A stretch of 64,000 nt of DNA from Minisyncoccia bacterium (GCA_038228545.1 JBBRPE010000002.1:22426-86425); one strand, 5' to 3'; positions 27,841 through 36,225 are shown, numbered from the stretch's first letter. Notes: generated from the sequence alone by a model not told the origin. Made by a program: numbers and translations.

Positions 27841-29005
27841 CCTTCGTTTTCTTAGTCGAACGCTTTGGAAAGTAGGAATGCTTCTGTATTTTCTCGGGAA
27901 GATAGCTTTCTTCGTCGTATTTCTTATAGCCTTTGCCGTAGCCCAAGTCTTTCATGAGTTTTGTGGGTGCGTTCCGTATATTCATAGGCACCTTGAGGTT
28001 TCCAAAAGCTTTCACGTCCTCTTGAGACTTACCGAGAGCATCCGTAACTGAACGGTCCTTTGCGGCGTTCGCAAGATACGCAACGCCATGTGCGAGATTG
28101 AGTGAGCATTCAGGATAGCCAATCGTTTCGCATGCGCGAAAGACCGCATTGGCGACAACGAGCGCAGTGGGCTGAGCGAGGCCCACATCTTCGGAAGCAA
28201 AGATAACCATACGTCGAGCAATGAAAAGTGGGTCTTCCCCAGCTTCTATCATACGAGCGAGGTAATACATGGCCGCATCCGGCTGCGAAGCACGCATGCT
28301 TTTTATAAACGCACTTATGATGTCGTAGTGCTCCTCTCCTTTTTTGTCGTAGCGCAGATGCGGCGACTCAAGCGATTTATTTAAATTCGTGACGGTAATC
28401 TTCTTTCCATACAGTGCGATAGCGCCCTCAAGCATGCCAAGTGCCTTACGTGCGTCGCCATTGGCGTAGCCCATAAGCCACTCAAACGCCCCGTCACCGA
28501 GCGTAACCTCAGCACGCGCTACGATGGCTCGTAGTGCTTCTTCCGAGAGTGGTTCAAGTACGAATACACGACTGCGAGAAAGGAGCGCAGGAATAACTTC
28601 AAACGATGGGTTCTCCGTCGTTGCTCCAATGAGCGTGAGTTCGCCGCTTTCTACATACGGCAACAGAAAATCTTGCTGTGCTTTATTAAAACGGTGTATC
28701 TCGTCGAGAAATAGGAGTTTCGGTTTAAATTCGAGCGTTTTGTTCTTTGAATCACCAAGTATTTTGCGTATATCGTCCTTACTTGCAGAGACTGCAGAGA
28801 GTTCAAAAAGTTCCGCATCTAACGCGCGAGCATAAATGCGAGCAATGGTCGTCTTTCCCGTCCCGGGCGGGCCCCAAAGAATAAACGAGAAAAGATGTTT
28901 CTTCTCTATGGCCACACGTAGCGGCTTCCCCTTCCCCACCAGATGCTCCTGTCCGACCACGTCGTCGATATTCGTAGGTCGTATGCGGTTAGCGAGAGGC
29001 TCCAT
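27836..29005 (-). CDS. rarA: replication-associated recombination protein A (AAA+ ATPase RarA/MgsA)
   Basis: Walker [10 protein letters not shown], Walker B LFLDEIHRF, MgsA C-terminal domains. Confidence 0.9.
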   Translation of the reverse strand: MEPLANRIRPTNIDDVVGQEHLVGKGKPLRVAIEKKHLFSFILWGPPGTGKTTIARIYARALDAELFELSAVSASKDDIRKILGDSKNKTLEFKPKLLFLDEIHRFNKAQQDFLLPYVESGELTLIGATTENPSFEVIPALLSRSRVFVLEPLSEEALRAIVARAEVTLGDGAFEWLMGYANGDARKALGMLEGAIALYGKKITVTNLNKSLESPHLRYDKKGEEHYDIISAFIKSMRASQPDAAMYYLARMIEAGEDPLFIARRMVIFASEDVGLAQPTALVVANAVFRACETIGYPECSLNLAHGVAYLANAAKDRSVTDALGKSQEDVKAFGNLKVPMNIRNAPTKLMKDLGYGKGYKKYDEESYLPEKIQKHSYFPKRSTKKTKE

Positions 29006-29037
29006 ACAAAAATTCTACGCTTCTCTACATAAAGTGA

Positions 29038-29060
29038 AAGCGCGGTCAGAGACCGCGCTT
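29038..29060 (-). terminator. hairpin AAGCGCGGTC-AGA-GACCGCGCTT at 3' end of small-gene array (upstream of rarA)
   Basis: Perfect 10-bp stem; moderately U-rich downstream on minus strand. Confidence 0.4.
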
Positions 29061-29279
29061 ATTGAAGTACAACCCTCCGCGTTCACCTAGAGGACGGATC
29101 CCGAGGAAACGCAGCAACGGTCCGAAACGACCGGTAAGTAGCAGGTCGCGCTCGAAGCGCCGGCGACGCTCGCGCATGAAGTCGGCGAGTGCCGTCATGC
29201 CATCGAGACGGGCTGCCAGTTCCATTTCATGGGCGACCTTGATGCGGAAGCGGGCGCGCTTGATTTCATTATTCATCAT
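29046..29279 (-). CDS. small ORF A (77 aa, Arg-rich), hypothetical; preceded by hairpin motif copy 1 and AAGGGA SD
   Basis: ORF + RBS + conserved leader motif. Confidence 0.45.
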   Translation of the reverse strand: MMNNEIKRARFRIKVAHEMELAARLDGMTALADFMRERRRRFERDLLLTGRFGPLLRFLGIRPLGERGGLYFNKRGL

Positions 29280-29284
29280 GTGAC

Positions 29285-29476
29285 CTATTCCCTTTCAGCC
29301 AAGGAACCATTTCCCGGGCTGAATAGAGAGAGCAAATCGTACTTGGTGTCGTACTTGCCCTGTTTGAGTTGTGCACGAGTCACCACTCGGTTTCGTTTCT
29401 TGGTCTTATCCGCGACGACCCGCGGACGCAGGTGCGGGCTCCGTAGAGCCTTCGCAATCGGATTACGTCGTTTCAT
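29285..29476 (-). CDS. small ORF B (63 aa, very basic: MKRRNPIAKALRSPHLRPR...), hypothetical nucleic-acid-binding-like; 3' end encodes hairpin motif copy 1
   Basis: AGGGAGAA SD 5 nt before ATG; overlaps ORF C by 14 nt (coupled). Confidence 0.4.
   Translation of the reverse strand: MKRRNPIAKALRSPHLRPRVVADKTKKRNRVVTRAQLKQGKYDTKYDLLSLFSPGNGSLAERE
29295..29322 (-). promoter_or_regulatory. leader hairpin motif copy 1 (minus-strand RNA: UUCAGCC-CGGGAAAUGGUUCCUU-GGCUGAA)
   Basis: Outer stem TCAGCC/GGCTGA + inner palindrome GGAA-ATGG-TTCC, ~15 nt before SD of ORF A. Confidence 0.55.
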
Positions 29477-29789
29477 TAGGTTCTCCCTGTTTGTGTCGTG
29501 CCTGGATGAAGTTCAAGAAGTCTTTCAGCTCGACTCGAGCCAGGTTTGCCTCGTCACGAATGTCTTTGGGGACATTCCGGAACCAGGTCGCGCGACGGTC
29601 GCCGACCCGCATGGCGACTGCCTTGAGCCTCGCCTCCATCTCCTGGAACTTCACCGAATCCGTGAGCGGGCTGTGCGAATCCTTGGCGTAGATGGCAACG
29701 AGCACGAGGTCCCCACTGATCTTCGCAGCACGCGCGAGGTCAAAGACCACCGCAACCGTCGTGACTTTATTTCCGTAGAAATCGTTCAT
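29463..29789 (-). CDS. small ORF C (108 aa), hypothetical
   Basis: AGGAGA SD; hairpin motif copy 2 just upstream. Confidence 0.5.
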   Translation of the reverse strand: MNDFYGNKVTTVAVVFDLARAAKISGDLVLVAIYAKDSHSPLTDSVKFQEMEARLKAVAMRVGDRRATWFRNVPKDIRDEANLARVELKDFLNFIQARHKQGEPNETT

Positions 29790-29809
29790 TACATTCTCCT
29801 AAACCTCTG

Positions 29810-29836
29810 TCAGCCAACGAACCATTCGTGGGCTGA
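29810..29836 (-). promoter_or_regulatory. leader hairpin motif copy 2 (TCAGCC-CACGAATGGTTCGTT-GGCTGA)
   Basis: Same outer stem; inner palindrome changed to CGAA-TGG-TTCG (compensatory). Confidence 0.55.
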
Positions 29837-29909
29837 ATAAAGTGGAGGACCGAAATCCTCCGAGTTTACAGATTCTGTTGCCAGGCTCTGCGAGCCCCGT
29901 CCGCCATCC

Positions 29910-30269
29910 CTAGGCCGCAGCGATGAATCGCGTTACCGCGATGACGTGACCATCCTTATCTCGAATGGATCCGTCCATCGGCCCCGTTCCCGGAGCGATG
30001 ACATCGGGGCGTCCCGACACGTGTCCGAGCACAAGGCTCGAAACAATGAAGAACGTATCCGGGATGGGCTCCGGAAGGTTCTCCACCACCCCCCAGACGG
30101 GCGACGCGTGAATCGGGATGCCGCCGTGTTCGGCACAGCCAGTGGCGATTTGCTCGCCAGGAGTGCTTGAGACTCGGACCACCGTCCCGCAGGGCGGGAC
30201 GGTGACATCTTCATTATCCAGCTTGCGGAACGTGATCGGATGCGGAGTGAGATTGCGCCAGTAGCTCAT
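29910..30269 (-). CDS. small ORF D (119 aa), hypothetical
   Basis: Start trimmed to MSYWRN (AAGGGG SD); hairpin motif copy 3 just upstream. Confidence 0.45.
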   Translation of the reverse strand: MSYWRNLTPHPITFRKLDNEDVTVPPCGTVVRVSSTPGEQIATGCAEHGGIPIHASPVWGVVENLPEPIPDTFFIVSSLVLGHVSGRPDVIAPGTGPMDGSIRDKDGHVIAVTRFIAAA

Positions 30270-30290
30270 ATTCAGTACCCCTTGTGCTTT

Positions 30291-30319
30291 TTGAGTCCAC
30301 GAACCATTCATGGACTCAA
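30291..30319 (-). promoter_or_regulatory. leader hairpin motif copy 3 (TTGAGTCCA-TGAATGGTTCG-TGGACTCAA)
   Basis: Outer stem fully replaced (GAGTCC/GGACTC) but still base-pairs; loop GAATGGTTCG conserved. Confidence 0.55.
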
Positions 30320-30604
30320 TGAAGCGGTGGACTTGAGAGGTCCACCGGAGGTGCCGGCCTTTTTGAGGCCGGCCTCCTGGAACTTTTCAGCCCAGAAGTT
30401 TTGCGCGTCACGTTCGCGACGCTCTTTGGCCCACTGCTCGCGCAGAGCCGGCGAGGGGTAAACCTTGGCGGTCACTCCTTCCGGCGCCTGCTCGCAGACG
30501 CGGGTACCGCACGGCTTGTGAGTCGTGAAGTGGTTGCTCCCGACCTGGAGCATCCATTGCGCGCCTGCGCGACGGCAGACGGTGCAGGTAATGATGTCGG
30601 TCAT
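30308..30604 (-). CDS. small ORF E (98 aa), Cys-rich zinc-ribbon-like (CTVCRR...CGTRVC)
   Basis: Start trimmed to MTDIITCTVC (GAAGGAAA SD); hairpin motif copy 4 upstream; 3' end contains two additional strong hairpins. Confidence 0.45.
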   Translation of the reverse strand: MTDIITCTVCRRAGAQWMLQVGSNHFTTHKPCGTRVCEQAPEGVTAKVYPSPALREQWAKERRERDAQNFWAEKFQEAGLKKAGTSGGPLKSTASLSP

Positions 30605-30621
30605 GAGAGTTTCCTTCTCTA

Positions 30622-30649
30622 TCAGCCAAGGAACCATTTCCCGGGCTGA
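30622..30649 (-). promoter_or_regulatory. leader hairpin motif copy 4 (identical core to copy 1)
   Basis: TTTATTCAGCCCGGGAAATGGTTCCTTGGCTGA, 20 nt before SD of ORF E. Confidence 0.55.
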
Positions 30650-30779
30650 ATAAAGGAGCTGACGTATTTGTCAGCTCTTGGTGCGAATTTGTGGCAATCG
30701 CGGCCTCCCTGCTTTTTCGCTCTAAGGAAATTGTGAGCAACCTGTGGAATGACCCCGCCACAGGACAAGGGGTGAATGG

Positions 30780-30947
30780 CTACACGCGCCAGCCGGGCTT
30801 ACCGCCGGAGGGCGTGGAGATCAGGCGGGCTTCAAACCCGCACTGACCCCCATCAACCTCCCGGCGCAAGCGGCCGGCGGGCGTGTAGCCCTTGCTCTGG
30901 AGGAGCAAGGTTGCGGCCTTCACCAGCTCGCGTTGACGGTCGGTCAT
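30780..30947 (-). CDS. small ORF F (55 aa, MTDRQRELVKAATLLL...), hypothetical
   Basis: GGGAGA SD 6 nt upstream; degenerate AGCCC-N-GGGCT hairpin upstream. Confidence 0.35.
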   Translation of the reverse strand: MTDRQRELVKAATLLLQSKGYTPAGRLRREVDGGQCGFEARLISTPSGGKPGWRV

Positions 30948-31346
30948 GACGTTTCTCCCAAAGCCCGGGATGGGCTCTTTTTTGATTCTTAAAGAACTGT
31001 CTGGAAACGTACGAGGTGCGCACCCTCGCTTACCCGTTTCCTTGTATGCACTCGTCCTGGTTTTACCGAACTTCGTCAAAACTTGACGTAAGTACCAGAT
31101 ACGATGCACATGGCGCGACGGACACCACCCCTCTTCCCCATCGGGGACTGGCCCGAGAGCAGGCTTCATTTTTTGGGAATTGCTTTCGCAATCCCTCTCC
31201 CAAGCGGAAACGGGCCGCAGGTACGGCATTAAGTGCGCCGGATGAATCCTGCTGAGTCCCCTTCCCGTTCAGGGAGGAATCACGAATTAACTTTTCACTA
31301 TGGAAATCTTTCAATGACCCTTGCCGTCAATGACGACTGACAAAAG

Positions 31347-31375
31347 CTGTATACACCCGTTCTCTTTTTTTGTCA
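31347..31375 (-). promoter_or_regulatory. candidate sigma-70 promoter for small-gene array (minus strand: TTGACA-17 nt-TATACA)
   Basis: Consensus -35, 17-nt spacer, 5/6 -10; points toward ORFs F-A. Confidence 0.4.
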
Positions 31376-31382
31376 AGACATT

Positions 31383-31468
31383 CTGACTTATTTAGTCAAT
31401 TTATAACAAAAATGCCTATAAAATAGGCTATTTTACTAGTATTAAACGACATTATCAGCTGACTAAAT
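31383..31468. promoter_or_regulatory. operator-like repeat set between divergent promoters: TGACT-TATTT-AGTCA inverted repeat (31383-31397), palindrome GCCTATAAAATAGGC (31413-31427), TGACTAAAT (31460-31468); further CTGAC(T) copies at 31336 and 31503
   Basis: Repeats read directly in ~70% AT spacer. Confidence 0.4.
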
Positions 31469-31489
31469 TTGAATTCGTGACAATAAACA

Positions 31490-31518
31490 TTGACAAATCT
31501 TTCTGACTTTGCTACGAT
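31490..31518 (+). promoter_or_regulatory. candidate sigma-70 promoter (TTGACA-17 nt-TACGAT) driving noncoding transcript
   Basis: Perfect -35, 17-nt spacer, 4/6 -10. Confidence 0.45.
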
Positions 31519-31524
31519 ATGACG

Positions 31525-31778
31525 GTCTGGCTAGCCCCTTTGGGACTGCCTAATTCATTGGAGGAATCCATGAGAATGCGGCTTCATTGAGGTCGTCAGT
31601 CGGACGACCGCCCGGGTGTAACCGGGCAAAAAAGTAGGAAAGGTCATTCATGACCAGAATTTTCTCTCCAGGCGACGGCGAGTAGCCGACCGAAGTGCCT
31701 GTCTTGCGACGTAAGATGACGTCGCGACGAAGCAACCAGTACCGGGGCCGGGGACACAACGTCTCCGGCCCTTTTTTA
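31525..31778 (+). ncRNA. candidate ~255-nt noncoding or leader RNA bounded by promoter and intrinsic terminator; contains two SD-preceded micro-ORFs (MRMRLH, MTRIFSPGDGE) and several internal hairpins; antisense partner region of TrmB-like gene 3' end
   Basis: Promoter 31490-31518, terminator 31745-31778, no plausible protein gene between. Confidence 0.35.
31745..31778 (+). terminator. intrinsic terminator GGGCCGGGGAC-ACAAC-GTCTCCGGCCC + TTTTTT
   Basis: 11-bp GC-rich stem + U6. Confidence 0.65.
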
Positions 31779-32537
31779 CGCCTCTTTTTTCTTAGGCTCT
31801 TCGGAGTTGAGCCACAAGAAGTCAAAAATACTTCGCATATTCTCGGCTATCTCCTCACTTTCTATAATGACGCCGAATGGTTCATTACTGTATGAACGAA
31901 TTACCGTTTTGTTATCGAAAATCGACAAATCGATGCTTAGAGCGAGCACATCCGGCGCGATGAATCGTCGTTCGGTGAGAGCATCGAACTCAACTCGCTC
32001 GAAATGAGGTTTATGGAGTTGGATACCTTTTGAATACACACCCTTACCCCTCCGTCGCTCCGAGTATTCATCGAGCTCTTTTTCTGAAAAAAGATTTGCG
32101 AGATGCTCGTATGAAAAGATGGTGTAAATTTTCTTAGACTTGGTCATGAGGGCCTCCTCCCTTGTCGCTGACACACCCTCCTTTCCCGGAAAAAAACGAA
32201 CAACGGGACGTTCTCCTGCCCCTTCAAACTGAAGGAGTAGCGCTGGAAGCAAAGTTTGCAACAAACTCTCATTCGTTCGTAAATTTTCTTTTTGCTTTTC
32301 GAGTACTCGCTTAAGAGCCTCCGGGGACTCCGGCGCGAAATACGTTTTCTTCCCCTCCTCATACGTACTCATCAGTCCTTTTTCCATAAGGGACTTTATC
32401 TGTACGTACGTCGTGGGACGTACTATCTTCGCGTGTTTAGCGAGCTGGTCGGCGGTCGCGCGACCGATTTCAATTGATGCAAGATACACTCGGGCCTCTT
32501 TTTCAGATAGACCAAAATCCTGAAGTTCTTTTAGCAT
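31776..32537 (-). CDS. TrmB-family transcriptional regulator (N-terminal wHTH + C-terminal effector-like domain)
   Basis: MLKELQDFGLSEKEARVYLASIEIGRATADQLAKHAKIVRPTTYVQIKSLMEKGL matches TrmB HTH pattern; start trimmed to MLKELQ. Confidence 0.7.
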   Translation of the reverse strand: MLKELQDFGLSEKEARVYLASIEIGRATADQLAKHAKIVRPTTYVQIKSLMEKGLMSTYEEGKKTYFAPESPEALKRVLEKQKENLRTNESLLQTLLPALLLQFEGAGERPVVRFFPGKEGVSATREEALMTKSKKIYTIFSYEHLANLFSEKELDEYSERRRGKGVYSKGIQLHKPHFERVEFDALTERRFIAPDVLALSIDLSIFDNKTVIRSYSNEPFGVIIESEEIAENMRSIFDFLWLNSEEPKKKEA

Positions 32538-32710: not shown

Positions 32711-32715
32711 ACATG

Positions 32716-32786
32716 TGCGGGATAGGAGAATCGGACTCCTGCTCTCAGTTTGGAAAACTGATGTTCTACCATTAAACTAATCCCGC
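32716..32786 (-). tRNA. tRNA-Gly (anticodon UCC)
   Basis: Manual fold: GCGGGAT/ATCCCGC acceptor, D-arm GTTT-AATGGTA-GAAC, anticodon loop TTTCCAA, T-arm AGGAG-TCCGATT-CTCCT, discriminator A; no encoded CCA. Confidence 0.8.
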
Positions 32787-35941: not shown

Positions 35942-36154
35942 AGGTGCGGATGGGGAGAATGGAGGGGAGAAGTGTCCTGAGATTATTCAGGCACGCATCG
36001 GTCACAGATATTTCCCTGCTGGGAAATTCCGCGACCCCGCCTCGGCGCCGTCGCGCTTGCGGCTTCCGATTATCCACGCACGGCGTCCCACGCCGTGCTC
36101 TATCCGCCCGTCGACAATGCAAAAACGCCCCAGAGGGGCGTTTTTGCTCGACGG
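35942..36154. repeat. tRNA-linked conserved element, copy 3 (downstream of tRNA-Gly-GCC): partial direct tRNA 3'-end copy GGTGCGGATGGGGAGAA (35942-35958), conserved core (35990-36070), inverted partial CTCTATCCGCC (36097-36107), long hairpin CGTCGACAATGCAAAAACGCCCC-AGA-GGGGCGTTTTTGCTCGACG (36108-36152)
   Basis: Aligned by eye to copy 1; stem TTTTCC/GGAAAA of copy 1 becomes TTTCCC/GGGAAA here (compensatory). Confidence 0.55.
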
Positions 36155-36225
36155 TGCGGATAGGGAGAATCGGACTCCCGCCTCGTCCTTGGCAAGGACG
36201 CGTTCTACCACTAAACCATATCCGC
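36155..36225 (-). tRNA. tRNA-Gly (anticodon GCC)
   Basis: Manual fold: GCGGATA/TATCCGC acceptor, anticodon loop TTGCCAA, T-arm GGGAG-TCCGATT-CTCCC, discriminator A; no CCA. Confidence 0.8.

What the first reader, a model, noticed from the sequence alone, without database searches (positions are those of the whole stretch)
31300..31790. Switch-like divergent promoter hub with operator-type repeats and a promoter-to-terminator bounded ~255-nt RNA
A ~70% AT spacer holds two near-consensus, back-to-back sigma-70 promoters.
- The minus-strand promoter (TTGACA-17-TATACA) feeds the small-gene array.
- The plus-strand promoter (TTGACA-17-TACGAT) drives a transcript that ends at a strong intrinsic terminator (31745-31778).
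- Between the promoters lie a TGACT-N5-AGTCA inverted repeat, the perfect palindrome GCCTATAAAATAGGC, and further CTGAC(T) copies, including one inside the plus-promoter spacer. This layout resembles a phage or mobile-element immunity switch.
- The plus transcript has no credible protein gene. It carries two micro-ORFs with strong SDs (GGAGGAAtccATG MRMRLH; AGGAAAGGtcattcATG MTRIFSPGDGE) and several stem-loops.
- It could be an sRNA, a leader-peptide attenuator, or an antisense regulator: read-through would run antisense to the TrmB-like regulator gene.
Basis: seen in the sequence. Interest (0 to 1): 0.6.

Follow-up and report, generated by a model that had tools for sequence, protein, structure and literature searches.

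The report
Conserved micropeptide gene beside TrmB regulator
The ~255-base transcript is best read as a tiny, highly structured mRNA for an 11-residue glycine-rich peptide, which is conserved together with its promoter, its terminator and a set of repressor-type DNA sites next to a TrmB-family regulator gene in dozens of ultra-small (CPR/Patescibacteria) bacteria; what the peptide does is unknown.

Summary
The interpretation needs three corrections.

1. **The plus transcript is not gene-less.** Its second micro-ORF (31650-31685, MTRIFSPGDGE) belongs to a conserved family. In 33 of 41 loci an SD-led ORF of 8-41 codons ends G-[D/G]-G-x-stop. Motif-codon variants are all synonymous, all three stop codons are used, and GC3 shows coding periodicity.

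2. **The operator is GTCA-N8-TGAC, not TGACT-N5-AGTCA.** It occurs at fixed positions, about 500-fold enriched, and overlaps both promoters. This suggests co-repression rather than a toggle.

3. **It is not a phage immunity switch or an attenuator.**
   - The constant unit is a host TrmBL2-like regulator gene, the convergent peptide RNA and the operator region.
   - The divergently transcribed small-gene array is variable cargo.
   - Ribosome-constrained folds never disrupt the terminator, and nothing lies downstream in cis.

My best reading is a new micropeptide-regulator module. The peptide probably acts in trans, possibly on the TrmB-like protein. This is inferred, not shown. No Rfam, Pfam, NCBIfam or literature match was found.

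The parts
31326..31341 (.). Operator O1, GTCAATGACGACTGAC (GTCA-N8-TGAC). It covers about +1 to +16 of the minus-strand transcript.
   Evidence: Exact match. The same motif sits at -199 relative to the plus TSS in most relatives.
31348..31376 (-). Minus-strand sigma-70-type promoter: -35 TTGACA (31376-31371), 17-nt spacer, -10 TATACA (31353-31348). The inferred TSS is near 31341.
   Evidence: Read. Relatives keep TTGACAAAAA...TATACT or TATAAT at the same place.
31372..31387 (.). Operator O2, GTCAAGACATTCTGAC. Its left half is part of the -35 hexamer of the minus promoter.
   Evidence: Exact match. Conserved at about -154.
31414..31436 (.). Central A/T-rich box with GCC...GGC clamps: the palindrome GCCTATAAAATAGGC followed by TATTTTAC.
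   Evidence: Conserved as GCCTTAaATAaGGCCATATTT at about -115 to -95 in roughly half of the relatives.
31448..31463 (.). Operator O3, GACATTATCAGCTGAC (1 mismatch), about 35 bp upstream of the plus -35 hexamer.
   Evidence: Relatives have an exact GTCA-N8-TGAC at -78.
31479..31507 (.). Two overlapping 1-mismatch operators: GACAATAAACATTGAC (31479-94) and GACAAATCTTTCTGAC (31492-31507). The second spans the -35 hexamer and spacer of the plus promoter.
   Evidence: The TGAC-N9-TGAC arrangement inside the plus promoter occurs 23 times across the 34 loci scanned.
31490..31518 (+). Plus-strand promoter: TTGACA, 17-nt spacer, TG-n-TACGAT (extended -10). The inferred TSS is near 31525.
   Evidence: A near-consensus equivalent lies upstream of the micro-ORF in most of the 41 loci scanned.
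31525..31780 (+). Structured small mRNA of about 255 nt: a 5'UTR of about 125 nt, a 36-nt ORF and a 3'UTR of about 95 nt.
   Evidence: Fold z = -4.6. No Rfam family. Homologous units in relatives.
31570..31590 (+). Micro-ORF 1 (MRMRLH). It is not conserved and is probably a decayed duplicate of the peptide gene.
   Evidence: Its SD-ATG context, TCATTGGAGGAATCCATG, is 17/18 identical to the SD-ATG of the GDG ORF in L007. No counterpart elsewhere.
31591..31627 (+). Two adjacent 5'UTR hairpins: GGTCGTC-AGTCG-GACGACC, and the conserved 'S2' hairpin GCCCGG-GTGTAA-CCGGGC, which ends 23 nt before the start codon.
   Evidence: A GC-rich hairpin ends 18-28 nt upstream of the start in 27/40 loci against 9.8 expected. 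Compensatory changes are seen in L004 and L044.
31650..31685 (+). Micropeptide gene: MTRIFSPGDGE plus the TAG stop, with SD AGGAAAGG at 31636-43. The start codon lies in a small hairpin, and the MFE fold pairs the SD with ORF codons.
   Evidence: The conserved G-[D/G]-G-x-stop family. Coding GC3 periodicity. It is the only such micro-ORF in the 64-kb window; the one other motif match lies inside an open frame of about 198 codons.
31669..31701 (+). Hairpin that pairs the GDG codons with the segment just after the stop, placing the last codon and the stop codon in the loop.
   Evidence: Duplex test across 41 loci: mean z = -0.81, p = 3e-4; displaced control not significant.
31704..31727 (+). 3'UTR hairpin TTGCGACGT-AAGATG-ACGTCGCGA. 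Its sequence is lineage-specific.
   Evidence: The 3'UTRs of relatives vary from 61 to 202 nt and carry different hairpins.
31744..31778 (+). Intrinsic terminator (12-bp stem with 9 GC pairs, then TTTTTT). The T-run overlaps the stop codon of the convergent TrmB-like gene.
   Evidence: A strong terminator is present at the same place in the relatives inspected.
31776..32537 (-). TrmB-family (TrmBL2-like) regulator gene, 253 aa. It is the only protein gene invariably linked to the unit.
   Evidence: PF01978, E = 8e-13. AF2 model pLDDT 85. Best PDB fold match is TrmBL2 5bpd, E = 2e-14; the C-terminal domain resembles the TrmB effector domain (2f5t) and H. pylori NucT (6ehi). 445 homologues; every organism label attached to the listed hits or fetched loci is CPR or generic except two 'Gammaproteobacteria'-labelled MAGs.
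31175..31292 (-). Conserved structured element in the 5' leader of the minus-strand (array) transcript.
   Evidence: Leader fold z = -4.5. 13 of 42 pairs show compensatory changes in 7 sequences. The covariance model finds it in 7 loci only. No Rfam match.

Best explanation
The window comes from a CPR bacterium of the Adlerbacteria/Kaiserbacteria type. The region is a conserved three-part module.

**(a) Control region.** An AT-rich control region holds two back-to-back sigma-70-type promoters.
- It carries four to five 16-bp GTCA-N8-TGAC operators at fixed positions.
- The operators lie over the minus TSS, over the minus -35, about 35 bp upstream of the plus -35, and over the plus -35 and spacer.

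**(b) Peptide RNA.** A strongly promoted, terminator-bounded RNA of about 255 nt is the mRNA of a micropeptide, MTRIFSPGDGE in the window.
- Family signature: a basic/hydrophobic N-terminus of variable length followed by a C-terminal G-D/G-G-x.
- The RNA has a conserved GC-rich hairpin about 20-25 nt upstream of the start codon, frequent SD/start sequestration, and a hairpin enclosing the stop codon.

**(c) Regulator gene.** A convergent TrmBL2-like transcription-factor gene completes the module.

**Shown by comparison**
- The promoters, operators, ORF, hairpins and terminator are conserved.
- They are always linked to the TrmB-like gene.
- The divergently transcribed small-gene array is variable cargo, partly phage-like.

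**Inferred**
- A dimeric wHTH protein, most parsimoniously the adjacent TrmB-like protein, binds the operators and represses both promoters together.
- The peptide is translated at a high level and acts in trans rather than as a cis leader.
- Its most likely role is as partner, ligand or signal of the TrmB-like regulator, giving feedback on the module. The regulator keeps a C-terminal effector-type domain but has no known ligand.

The exact biochemical role of the peptide is not established.
For: **Synteny and homology**
- nhmmer hits lie directly 3' of the TrmB-like gene in many loci.
- 28 genome loci and 45 metagenome loci were fetched.

**ORF**
- GGN-G[AG]Y-GGN-NNN-stop sits at a consistent position in 36 of 49 non-redundant loci. 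My estimate of the chance expectation is about 0.007 per locus.
- The ORFs are SD-led and 8-41 codons long, with 33 ATG, 4 GTG and 4 TTG starts.
- 33 of 41 end G-[DG]-G-x-stop.
- All motif-codon variants are synonymous third-position changes, apart from the D-to-G alternation that the motif allows.
- The last residue is hypervariable, and stop codons are TAA 12, TAG 11, TGA 10.
- The variable N-terminal part has GC by codon position of 0.53/0.49/0.73, against 0.60/0.43/0.49 in long genes and 0.53-0.54 in the UTRs.
- A 41-aa member was independently called as a gene in JGI and ENA data.

**Trans-acting rather than cis**
- Distant members place the motif 2-4 residues before the stop (GPGGGWLK, GPGGGWIKTQ).
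- One member carries the motif twice (…GDGSGWIKKRGDGSGWQK).
- Several have hydrophobic, signal-like N-termini.
- Still more distant TrmB loci carry 67-108-aa Gly-rich ORFs at the same position.
- The terminator is kept in the constrained (ribosome-at-stop) fold of every locus whose output was displayed; part of that output was cut.

**Operators**
- 52 GTCA-N8-TGAC sites occur in 7.8 kb of intergenic DNA, against 4 in 306 kb elsewhere.
- Only spacing 8 occurs, and the positions cluster at about -199, -154 and -78.
- The only two exact sites in the 64-kb window are here.
- 5 of the 16 sites with up to 1 mismatch lie within 182 bp.

**Regulator**
- It has TrmBL2-like architecture.
- TrmB-family proteins bind inverted repeats, including TACT-N7-8-GAGTA, and repress when the site overlaps the promoter or TSS (PMC4158304).

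**Cargo**
- The array is variable.
- ORF G has phage homologues.
Against: - There are no expression, ribosome-profiling or peptide data.
- The motif codons are 88% GGC against 30% genome-wide. Some nucleotide-level constraint, such as RNA structure or a specific tRNA, therefore acts as well, and the peptide need not be the only functional product.
- Most peptides (8-13 aa) are too short for a signal sequence, so secretion is unsupported for them.
- Nothing shows that the TrmB-like protein binds these operators or the peptide.
- No operator is found upstream of the TrmB-like gene itself.
- About 8 of 49 loci lack a recognisable motif.
- The homology of the long Gly-rich ORFs in distant loci to the micro-ORFs rests on position only.
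Confidence: 0.5

Rival explanations
1. Cis-acting regulatory (arrest or leader) peptide. The nascent ...G-D-G-x chain, or the GGC/GAC codons, slows the ribosome at the stop codon. That holds the stop-codon hairpin open and changes the fate of the RNA: its stability, Rho access, or read-through antisense into the TrmB-like gene.
For: - The typical size is 8-13 codons, with a conserved C-terminus next to the stop and a variable N-terminus.
- The stop codon sits in a conserved hairpin.
- There is strong bias to particular Gly and Asp codons.
- The plus-strand terminator has no U-tract for the TrmB-like mRNA, so the convergent transcripts could overlap.
Against: - The terminator hairpin is intact in every displayed fold with a ribosome at the stop, so there is no antiterminator.
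- The distance from ORF to terminator varies from 61 to 202 nt.
- No gene lies downstream in cis.
- The residue in the P site at termination is hypervariable.
- In distant members the motif is not adjacent to the stop, or is duplicated.
Confidence: 0.17
2. The RNA is primarily a regulatory sRNA (or dual-function RNA). Its structured UTRs act by base-pairing or by protein sequestration, and the micro-ORF is secondary.
For: - The RNA is strongly structured (z = -4.6).
- It has a conserved positioned hairpin and is bounded by a promoter and a terminator.
- The ORF is only about 14% of the transcript.
Against: - UTR sequences are poorly conserved outside short hairpins. nhmmer with the RNA alone finds almost nothing.
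- UTR lengths vary widely.
- The most conserved element of the transcript is the ORF end, in a codon-aware pattern.
- No Rfam family matches.
Confidence: 0.12
3. RiPP or antimicrobial-peptide precursor. The peptide is post-translationally modified by enzymes encoded elsewhere and exported. Comparison points are streptide KGDGW, the microcin C heptapeptide, and Gly/Cys-rich TOMM precursors.
For: - It is a tiny ORF on an abundant-looking terminated transcript, as for mccA (my knowledge).
- Some members end GDGW or GGGW, and one has a duplicated core.
- A distant locus encodes SSGCGGF repeats.
Against: - No conserved modifying enzyme or transporter lies next to the module, and the neighbours are variable.
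- No NCBIfam precursor family matches the long members.
- The window peptide lacks Cys, Trp or Tyr cross-linking residues.
- The terminal residue is not fixed.
Confidence: 0.08
4. Phage or mobile-element immunity switch. The TrmB-like protein is the repressor of an integrated element whose early genes are the small-gene array.
For: - Divergent promoters share operators.
- The array has higher GC than its flanks.
- ORF G has phage homologues.
- The array content varies between genomes.
Against: - No integrase, structural or replication genes were recognised among the ORFs inspected between the flanking RarA-like and HU-like ORFs and the TrmB-like gene.
- There is no DNA or protein match of the module in phage collections.
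- The TrmB-like gene has host-like GC and a conserved chromosomal neighbourhood with HU, a trypsin-like protease and YraN.
- The regulator is not expressed from the hub.
- In some relatives the divergent gene is a PilB-like ATPase.
Confidence: 0.05

Closest known systems
Rgg/SHP (group III, convergent) and other RRNPP peptide-regulator pairs (PlcR/PapR, Rap/Phr, AimR/AimP)
   Same: A very small SD-led ORF sits directly beside, here convergent to, a transcription-factor gene. Conservation is concentrated in the C-terminal few residues, and the N-terminal part is variable. (Properties of the RRNPP systems are from my knowledge; review PMC13361665 was listed but not read.)
   Different: The regulator is wHTH plus coiled coil plus a C-terminal domain matching the TrmB effector domain and NucT, not HTH plus TPR. 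The peptides are Gly-rich and polar at the C-terminus, not hydrophobic. Most are too short (8-13 aa) to carry an export signal. No exporter, protease or Opp link is seen.
pCF10 prgQ/prgX control region (Qs RNA encoding iCF10)
   Same: A promoter-proximal micro-ORF lies on a short terminated RNA, with a convergent regulator gene and operators at the peptide promoter (my knowledge).
   Different: No operon continues beyond the terminator. No counter-transcript is evident. The regulator family is different, and the context is chromosomal in CPR bacteria.
Leader-peptide attenuators and arrest peptides (trpL, ermCL, catA86L, tnaC)
   Same: The ORF size is similar, the transcript is structured and ends in a terminator, and the ORF overlaps a hairpin.
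   Different: There is no alternative antiterminator and no downstream gene in cis. The conserved motif is not always adjacent to the stop.
TrmB family regulators, especially TrmBL2 (PDB 5bpd; PMC4158304, PMC3031468)
   Same: The adjacent protein has the PF01978 wHTH and the same overall architecture and length as TrmBL2: 253 aa against 264 aa. The family binds inverted repeats such as TACT-N7-8-GAGTA and represses when the site overlaps the promoter or TSS.
   Different: It is bacterial (CPR) and only about 21% identical. The putative operator GTCA-N8-TGAC is new. Archaeal TrmBL2 binds DNA broadly as a chromatin protein, whereas here the sites are strictly local.
Dual-function small RNAs and tiny-ORF transcripts (RNAIII/hld, SR1/SR1P, SgrS/SgrT, mccA transcript)
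   Same: A short, structured, terminator-bounded RNA has a small translated ORF occupying a minor part of it (my knowledge).
   Different: There is no evidence of base-pairing targets, and the UTR sequences are not conserved.

Membership tests
TrmB family transcription regulators (for the adjacent protein) | N-terminal winged-helix TrmB domain (PF01978) | tested here: met
   PF01978 E = 8.1e-13, 48.5 bits against a cut-off of 25.6. All 120 listed homologues carry PF01978.
TrmB family transcription regulators (for the adjacent protein) | Overall fold: wHTH, long helix, C-terminal alpha/beta domain as in TrmB/TrmBL2 | tested here: met
   AF2 model pLDDT 85.2. Foldseek hits: TrmBL2 5bpd E = 2e-14, TrmB effector domain 2f5t E = 1.5e-5, NucT 6ehi. 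Profile against PDB: TrmBL2 E = 5e-4.
TrmB family transcription regulators (for the adjacent protein) | Binds a palindromic operator at the regulated promoter | not testable with these tools
   GTCA-N8-TGAC sites are conserved and local, but binding by this protein is inferred only.
RRNPP / Rgg-SHP-type peptide-regulator systems | Receptor is an HTH (or phosphatase) protein with a TPR peptide-binding domain | tested here: not met
   The regulator has a TrmBL2-like fold and no TPR domain.
RRNPP / Rgg-SHP-type peptide-regulator systems | Small pro-peptide gene adjacent to the regulator gene, with the active part at the C-terminus | tested here: inconclusive
   Adjacency and C-terminal conservation are met. 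Whether a C-terminal fragment is active is unknown.
RRNPP / Rgg-SHP-type peptide-regulator systems | Export, processing and re-import of the peptide | not testable with these tools
   Only the longer members have hydrophobic N-terminal segments. No transporter is linked.
Leader-peptide transcription attenuator | Ribosome position on the leader ORF selects between terminator and antiterminator | tested here: not met
   The terminator pairs are retained in the constrained (ribosome-at-stop) fold of every locus whose output was displayed; part of the output was cut.
Leader-peptide transcription attenuator | Regulated gene(s) downstream in the same orientation | tested here: not met
   The terminator T-run overlaps the stop codon of the convergent TrmB-like gene. 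The arrangement is the same in relatives.
Non-coding sRNA / known RNA family | Match to a described RNA family | tested here: not met
   Rfam at the gathering threshold finds tRNAs only. At the E-value threshold the best hit is SdsR, 23.5 bits against a gathering score of 38, on the terminator only. ARAGORN finds no tmRNA.
Non-coding sRNA / known RNA family | Absence of a conserved translated ORF | tested here: not met
   There is a conserved SD-led ORF with codon-aware conservation and GC3 periodicity.
Phage CI/Cro-type immunity switch | Repressor gene transcribed from one of the two divergent promoters, within a prophage or mobile element | tested here: not met
   The regulator gene is convergent to the plus transcript, not driven by the hub. 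The module has no phage or viral relatives, and no integrase or structural genes were recognised nearby.
RiPP precursor | Co-located maturase or transporter, or membership of a known precursor family | tested here: not met
   The neighbours are variable small proteins or a PilB-like ATPase. No NCBIfam family matches the long members. Enzymes encoded elsewhere in the genome could not be checked.

The most novel reading that the evidence does not exclude
CPR (Paceibacteria-type) bacteria possess a previously unrecognised peptide-regulator system. A ribosomally made Gly-rich micropeptide (…G-D/G-G-x; in some lineages a signal-bearing or tandem-core precursor) would be the cognate ligand or signal of a TrmB-family transcription factor. 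The complex would control a four-operator divergent promoter region that drives the peptide gene itself and a hot spot of horizontally acquired, partly phage-like cargo genes. That would be a peptide-sensing or quorum-like circuit built on a non-RRNPP receptor fold, in organisms where no cell-cell signalling system is known.
Probability: 0.2. Interest if true: 0.85.

Novelty: new variant of a known kind. Interest (0 to 1): 0.6.

Why it matters
- Genes for 8-13-residue peptides are invisible to annotation pipelines. This one is conserved with its full regulatory apparatus across dozens of CPR genomes, organisms whose regulation and communication are almost unknown.
- It gives a concrete, testable hypothesis: a defined 16-bp operator, one candidate regulator and one synthesisable peptide.
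- It concerns a bacterial TrmBL2-like protein, whose archaeal relatives are chromatin proteins and repressors without a known ligand.
- It marks a chromosomal site where variable, partly phage-derived small genes sit under one conserved promoter.
- If the peptide turns out to be a ligand of the TrmB-like protein, that would add a new receptor class to bacterial peptide sensing.

Tried and rejected
1. **Known RNA families.** Rfam at the gathering and E-value thresholds on the window and on 12 loci gave nothing, and ARAGORN found no tmRNA.
2. **Classical attenuation.** Constrained folds with a ribosome at the stop never open the terminator.
3. **Replication origin.** The AT-rich repeats and the nearby HU gene prompted this idea. 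There is no DnaA-box excess, no box in the spacer and no GC-skew switch. A TGTGGATAA box does occur in distant loci.
4. **Phage or prophage origin of the module.** There is no DNA match in phages, no TrmB-like relative in IMG/VR or INPHARED, and no close ORF G relative in IMG/VR.
5. **TGACT-N5-AGTCA as the operator.** It is not conserved.
6. **Pairing between the minus-promoter region and loops of the plus RNA** (repeats I3, I15 and I17). The segments are collinear rather than antiparallel, and part of them is untranscribed, so I judged them chance.
7. **ArfA likeness of the DUF7230 protein.** phmmer against PDB found no ArfA.
8. **Exact-sequence look-ups** of the TrmB-like and RarA-like proteins found no contig.
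9. **Literature searches** for CPR or Patescibacteria with TrmB, signalling peptides or micropeptides found nothing relevant.
10. **Database search with a peptide.** The 34-aa query was too short. The 41-aa member retrieved only itself.
Full report
**Observation.**
- The 200-bp spacer 31300-31499 is 32% GC.
- The plus promoter TTGACA-17-TACGAT (31490-31518, with an extended -10 TG) and the terminator (12-bp stem at 31744-31772, then TTTTTT) were found by the scanner.
- The minus promoter TTGACA-17-TATACA (31376-31348) is visible in the sequence.
- The palindrome, TGACT-N5-AGTCA and both micro-ORFs are present.
- The 261-nt transcript folds with z = -4.6.
- No Rfam family, tRNA or tmRNA accounts for it.

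**Origin and relatives.**
- The neighbouring 253-aa protein carries a TrmB wHTH domain.
- Searching with it returned 28 genome loci, from Candidatus Adlerbacteria, Kaiserbacteria, Paceibacterota and other Patescibacteria, and 45 metagenome loci.
- nhmmer with window 31300-31790 hits the stretch immediately 3' of the TrmB-like gene, on the opposite strand, in many of them.
- After removing duplicates, 49 intergenic regions were compared.

**The plus transcript encodes a conserved micropeptide.**
- The end of the second micro-ORF, GGC GAC GGC GAG TAG, recurs as GGN-G[AG]Y-GGN-NNN-stop at a consistent position in 36 of 49 loci. By my estimate the chance expectation is about 0.007 per locus.
- Each has an in-frame ATG, GTG or TTG preceded by an SD.
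- The peptides are 8-41 residues, with a median of about 12. Examples are MTRIFSPGDGE (window), MRLSRGDGG, MKKLKLFGDGW and MCRLGDGW.
- 33 of 41 end G-[D/G]-G-x. Every variant in the three motif codons is a synonymous third-position change or the D/G alternation. The last residue is hypervariable, and TAA, TAG and TGA are used 12, 11 and 10 times.
- The variable N-terminal part shows coding periodicity: GC 0.53/0.49/0.73 by codon position, against UTR GC of 0.53-0.54 and GC3 of 0.49 in long genes.
- The strong GGC/GAC preference (88% GGC against 30% genome-wide) fits this general preference for C- and G-ending codons. It also leaves room for a nucleotide-level constraint.
- The first micro-ORF (MRMRLH) is not conserved. 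Its SD-ATG context is 17/18 identical to that of the GDG ORF of L007, so it looks like a decayed duplicate.
- No known family matches the longer members. One 41-aa member has been called as a gene in public data but has no detectable relatives.

**RNA structure.**
- A GC-rich hairpin ends 18-28 nt upstream of the start codon in 27 of 40 loci, against 9.8 expected from shuffles. The count peaks in that position bin.
- It shows compensatory changes: GCCCGG/CCGGGC in the window, GCCCAG/CUGGGC in L004 and GUCCGG/CCGGAC in L044.
- From inspection of the sequences, the SD or start codon is often sequestered.
- The GDG codons tend to pair with the segment just after the stop, so the stop codon lies in a hairpin loop. 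Across 41 loci the mean z is -0.81 and p = 3e-4, and a displaced control is not significant.
- 3'UTR length varies from 61 to 202 nt.
- With a ribosome placed at the stop codon, the terminator stays intact in every displayed locus. Classical attenuation is therefore not supported, and the next gene is convergent anyway.

**Control region.**
- Aligning the upstream regions on the inferred plus TSS shows a fixed architecture.
- GTCA-N8-TGAC occurs 52 times in 7.8 kb of these regions and 4 times in the other 306 kb of the loci. Only spacing 8 occurs, and the sites cluster at about -199, -154 and -78.
- TGAC-N9-TGAC inside the plus promoter (23 occurrences in 34 loci) is a one-mismatch operator, GACA-N8-TGAC. 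I infer that its left half is forced by the -35 hexamer.
- In the window the only two exact sites in 64 kb are 31326-41 and 31372-87. Three one-mismatch sites lie at 31448, 31479 and 31492, so 5 of the 16 sites in the window fall within 182 bp.
- The sites cover the minus TSS, the minus -35 and the plus -35/spacer, with one more lying upstream of the plus promoter. The layout suggests joint repression of both promoters, not a toggle.
- The palindrome is the local form of a conserved central box.

**The regulator.**
- The AF2 model (pLDDT 85) matches archaeal TrmBL2 over its whole length (E = 2e-14). Its C-terminal domain matches the TrmB effector domain and H. pylori NucT.
- The profile search against PDB agrees.
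- TrmB-family proteins bind inverted repeats such as TACT-N7-8-GAGTA and repress when the site overlaps the promoter or TSS. TrmBL2 is 264 aa and lacks the sugar-binding part (PMC4158304). It is a chromosomal protein and global repressor that also has bacterial homologues (PMC3031468, abstract).
- The TrmB-like gene is the only protein gene always linked to the operators, and the operators are strictly local. It is therefore the most parsimonious binder. This is an inference.

**What varies.**
- The array fed by the minus promoter differs between genomes. It holds recurring small proteins (an I_55-like protein, a CxxC…HKxCG protein, DUF7230), and in distant loci a PilB-like ATPase with or without what looks like a RelE/Phd-type toxin-antitoxin pair (by eye).
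- In the window the array is GC-richer than its flanks, and ORF G has phage homologues.
- The TrmB-like gene has no relatives in viral or phage collections, and the region has no phage DNA match.
- An origin of replication was considered and rejected.

**Cis or trans?**
- In distant members the Gly-rich motif lies 2-4 residues before the stop. It is duplicated in one (…GDGSGWIKKRGDGSGWQK) and follows a hydrophobic, signal-like segment in several.
- Still more distant TrmB loci have 67-108-aa Gly-rich ORFs at the same convergent position.
- This pattern fits a trans-acting product better than a stalling leader.
- The arrangement resembles peptide-regulator pairs (convergent Rgg/SHP, prgQ/prgX), but the receptor fold is different and most peptides are too short to carry export signals.
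- Membership in those families is therefore not claimed. The idea that the peptide is a ligand or signal for the TrmB-like protein is a hypothesis, at about 0.2-0.3.

**Verdict.**
- The object is a conserved, previously undescribed module: a micropeptide mRNA, an operator region and a TrmBL2-like regulator in CPR bacteria.
- What the elements are is well supported. How the peptide works is not.
- Literature searches found nothing on it.

Noticed in passing
window 31175-31292 (- strand): The 5' leader of the minus-strand (array) transcript contains a conserved structured element of about 118 nt (UUCGUGAUUCCU … CGGCGCAnUUUAAUGCCGUACC … AGGGAUUGCGAAAGCAAUCC). 13 of 42 pairs show compensatory changes in 7 sequences, and a GNRA-capped hairpin is a possible alternative fold. 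No Rfam match. A covariance model finds it only in the window and in L004, L007, L033, L042, L043 and L044. It could be a second new cis-regulatory RNA.
   Followed up: partly
window 29285-29476 (- strand); also L004, L006, L009, L015, L035, L044, L063: A small basic protein (DUF7230; E = 8e-6, 26.3 bits, just under the 27-bit cut-off) recurs in the variable arrays. By eye, its motif RNPxAKALxxPxxRxRVVxDKKKYSRKGK looks like the ribosome-rescue factor ArfA. phmmer against PDB found no ArfA, so the resemblance is unconfirmed.
   Followed up: partly
window 29000-31300: The small-gene array is GC-richer (0.57-0.65) than its flanks (0.45-0.53), and its content differs between related genomes. ORF G (29910-30311) matches PHROG 21731 and hypothetical proteins of Bacillus, Paenibacillus, Microcystis and other phages. 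It looks like a hot spot of horizontally acquired cargo under a conserved host promoter.
   Followed up: partly
L017, L021, L045, L048, L054, L059 (and, by eye, L053, L055, L057) intergenic regions, about -125 relative to the plus TSS: A perfect DnaA-box sequence (TGTGGATAA, the reverse complement of TTATCCACA) sits between the operators in the more distant loci. It is absent from the window.
   Followed up: no
L022, L023, L024, L025 (downstream of, and convergent to, distant TrmB-like genes): These loci have longer Gly-rich ORFs instead of micro-ORFs. L022 encodes a 70-aa protein with two SSGCGGF repeats and an acidic tail, which looks like a TOMM/microcin-B17-type precursor. L023 and L025 encode proteins of about 108 aa with GGPDGG and GPLGISGPLGL repeats.
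   Followed up: no
window 30955-30985: A hairpin (AGCCCGGGATGGGCT) was flagged as a plus-strand terminator. On the minus strand it lies directly upstream of the SD (GGGAGAA) and start codon of the first array gene (30947), preceded by an A-run. It may influence translation of that gene.
   Followed up: no
window 31570-31590: The SD-ATG context of micro-ORF 1 (MRMRLH) is nearly identical to that of the GDG peptide gene of locus L007. This suggests a partial tandem duplication of the peptide gene in the window lineage, followed by decay of the upstream copy.
   Followed up: partly
window 32715-32786 (- strand): tRNA-Gly(TCC) lies immediately upstream of, and in the same orientation as, the TrmB-like gene, so the two may be co-transcribed. 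The peptide's Gly codons are GGC, which tRNA-Gly(GCC) at 36153-36225 would read, so no direct link is evident.
   Followed up: no
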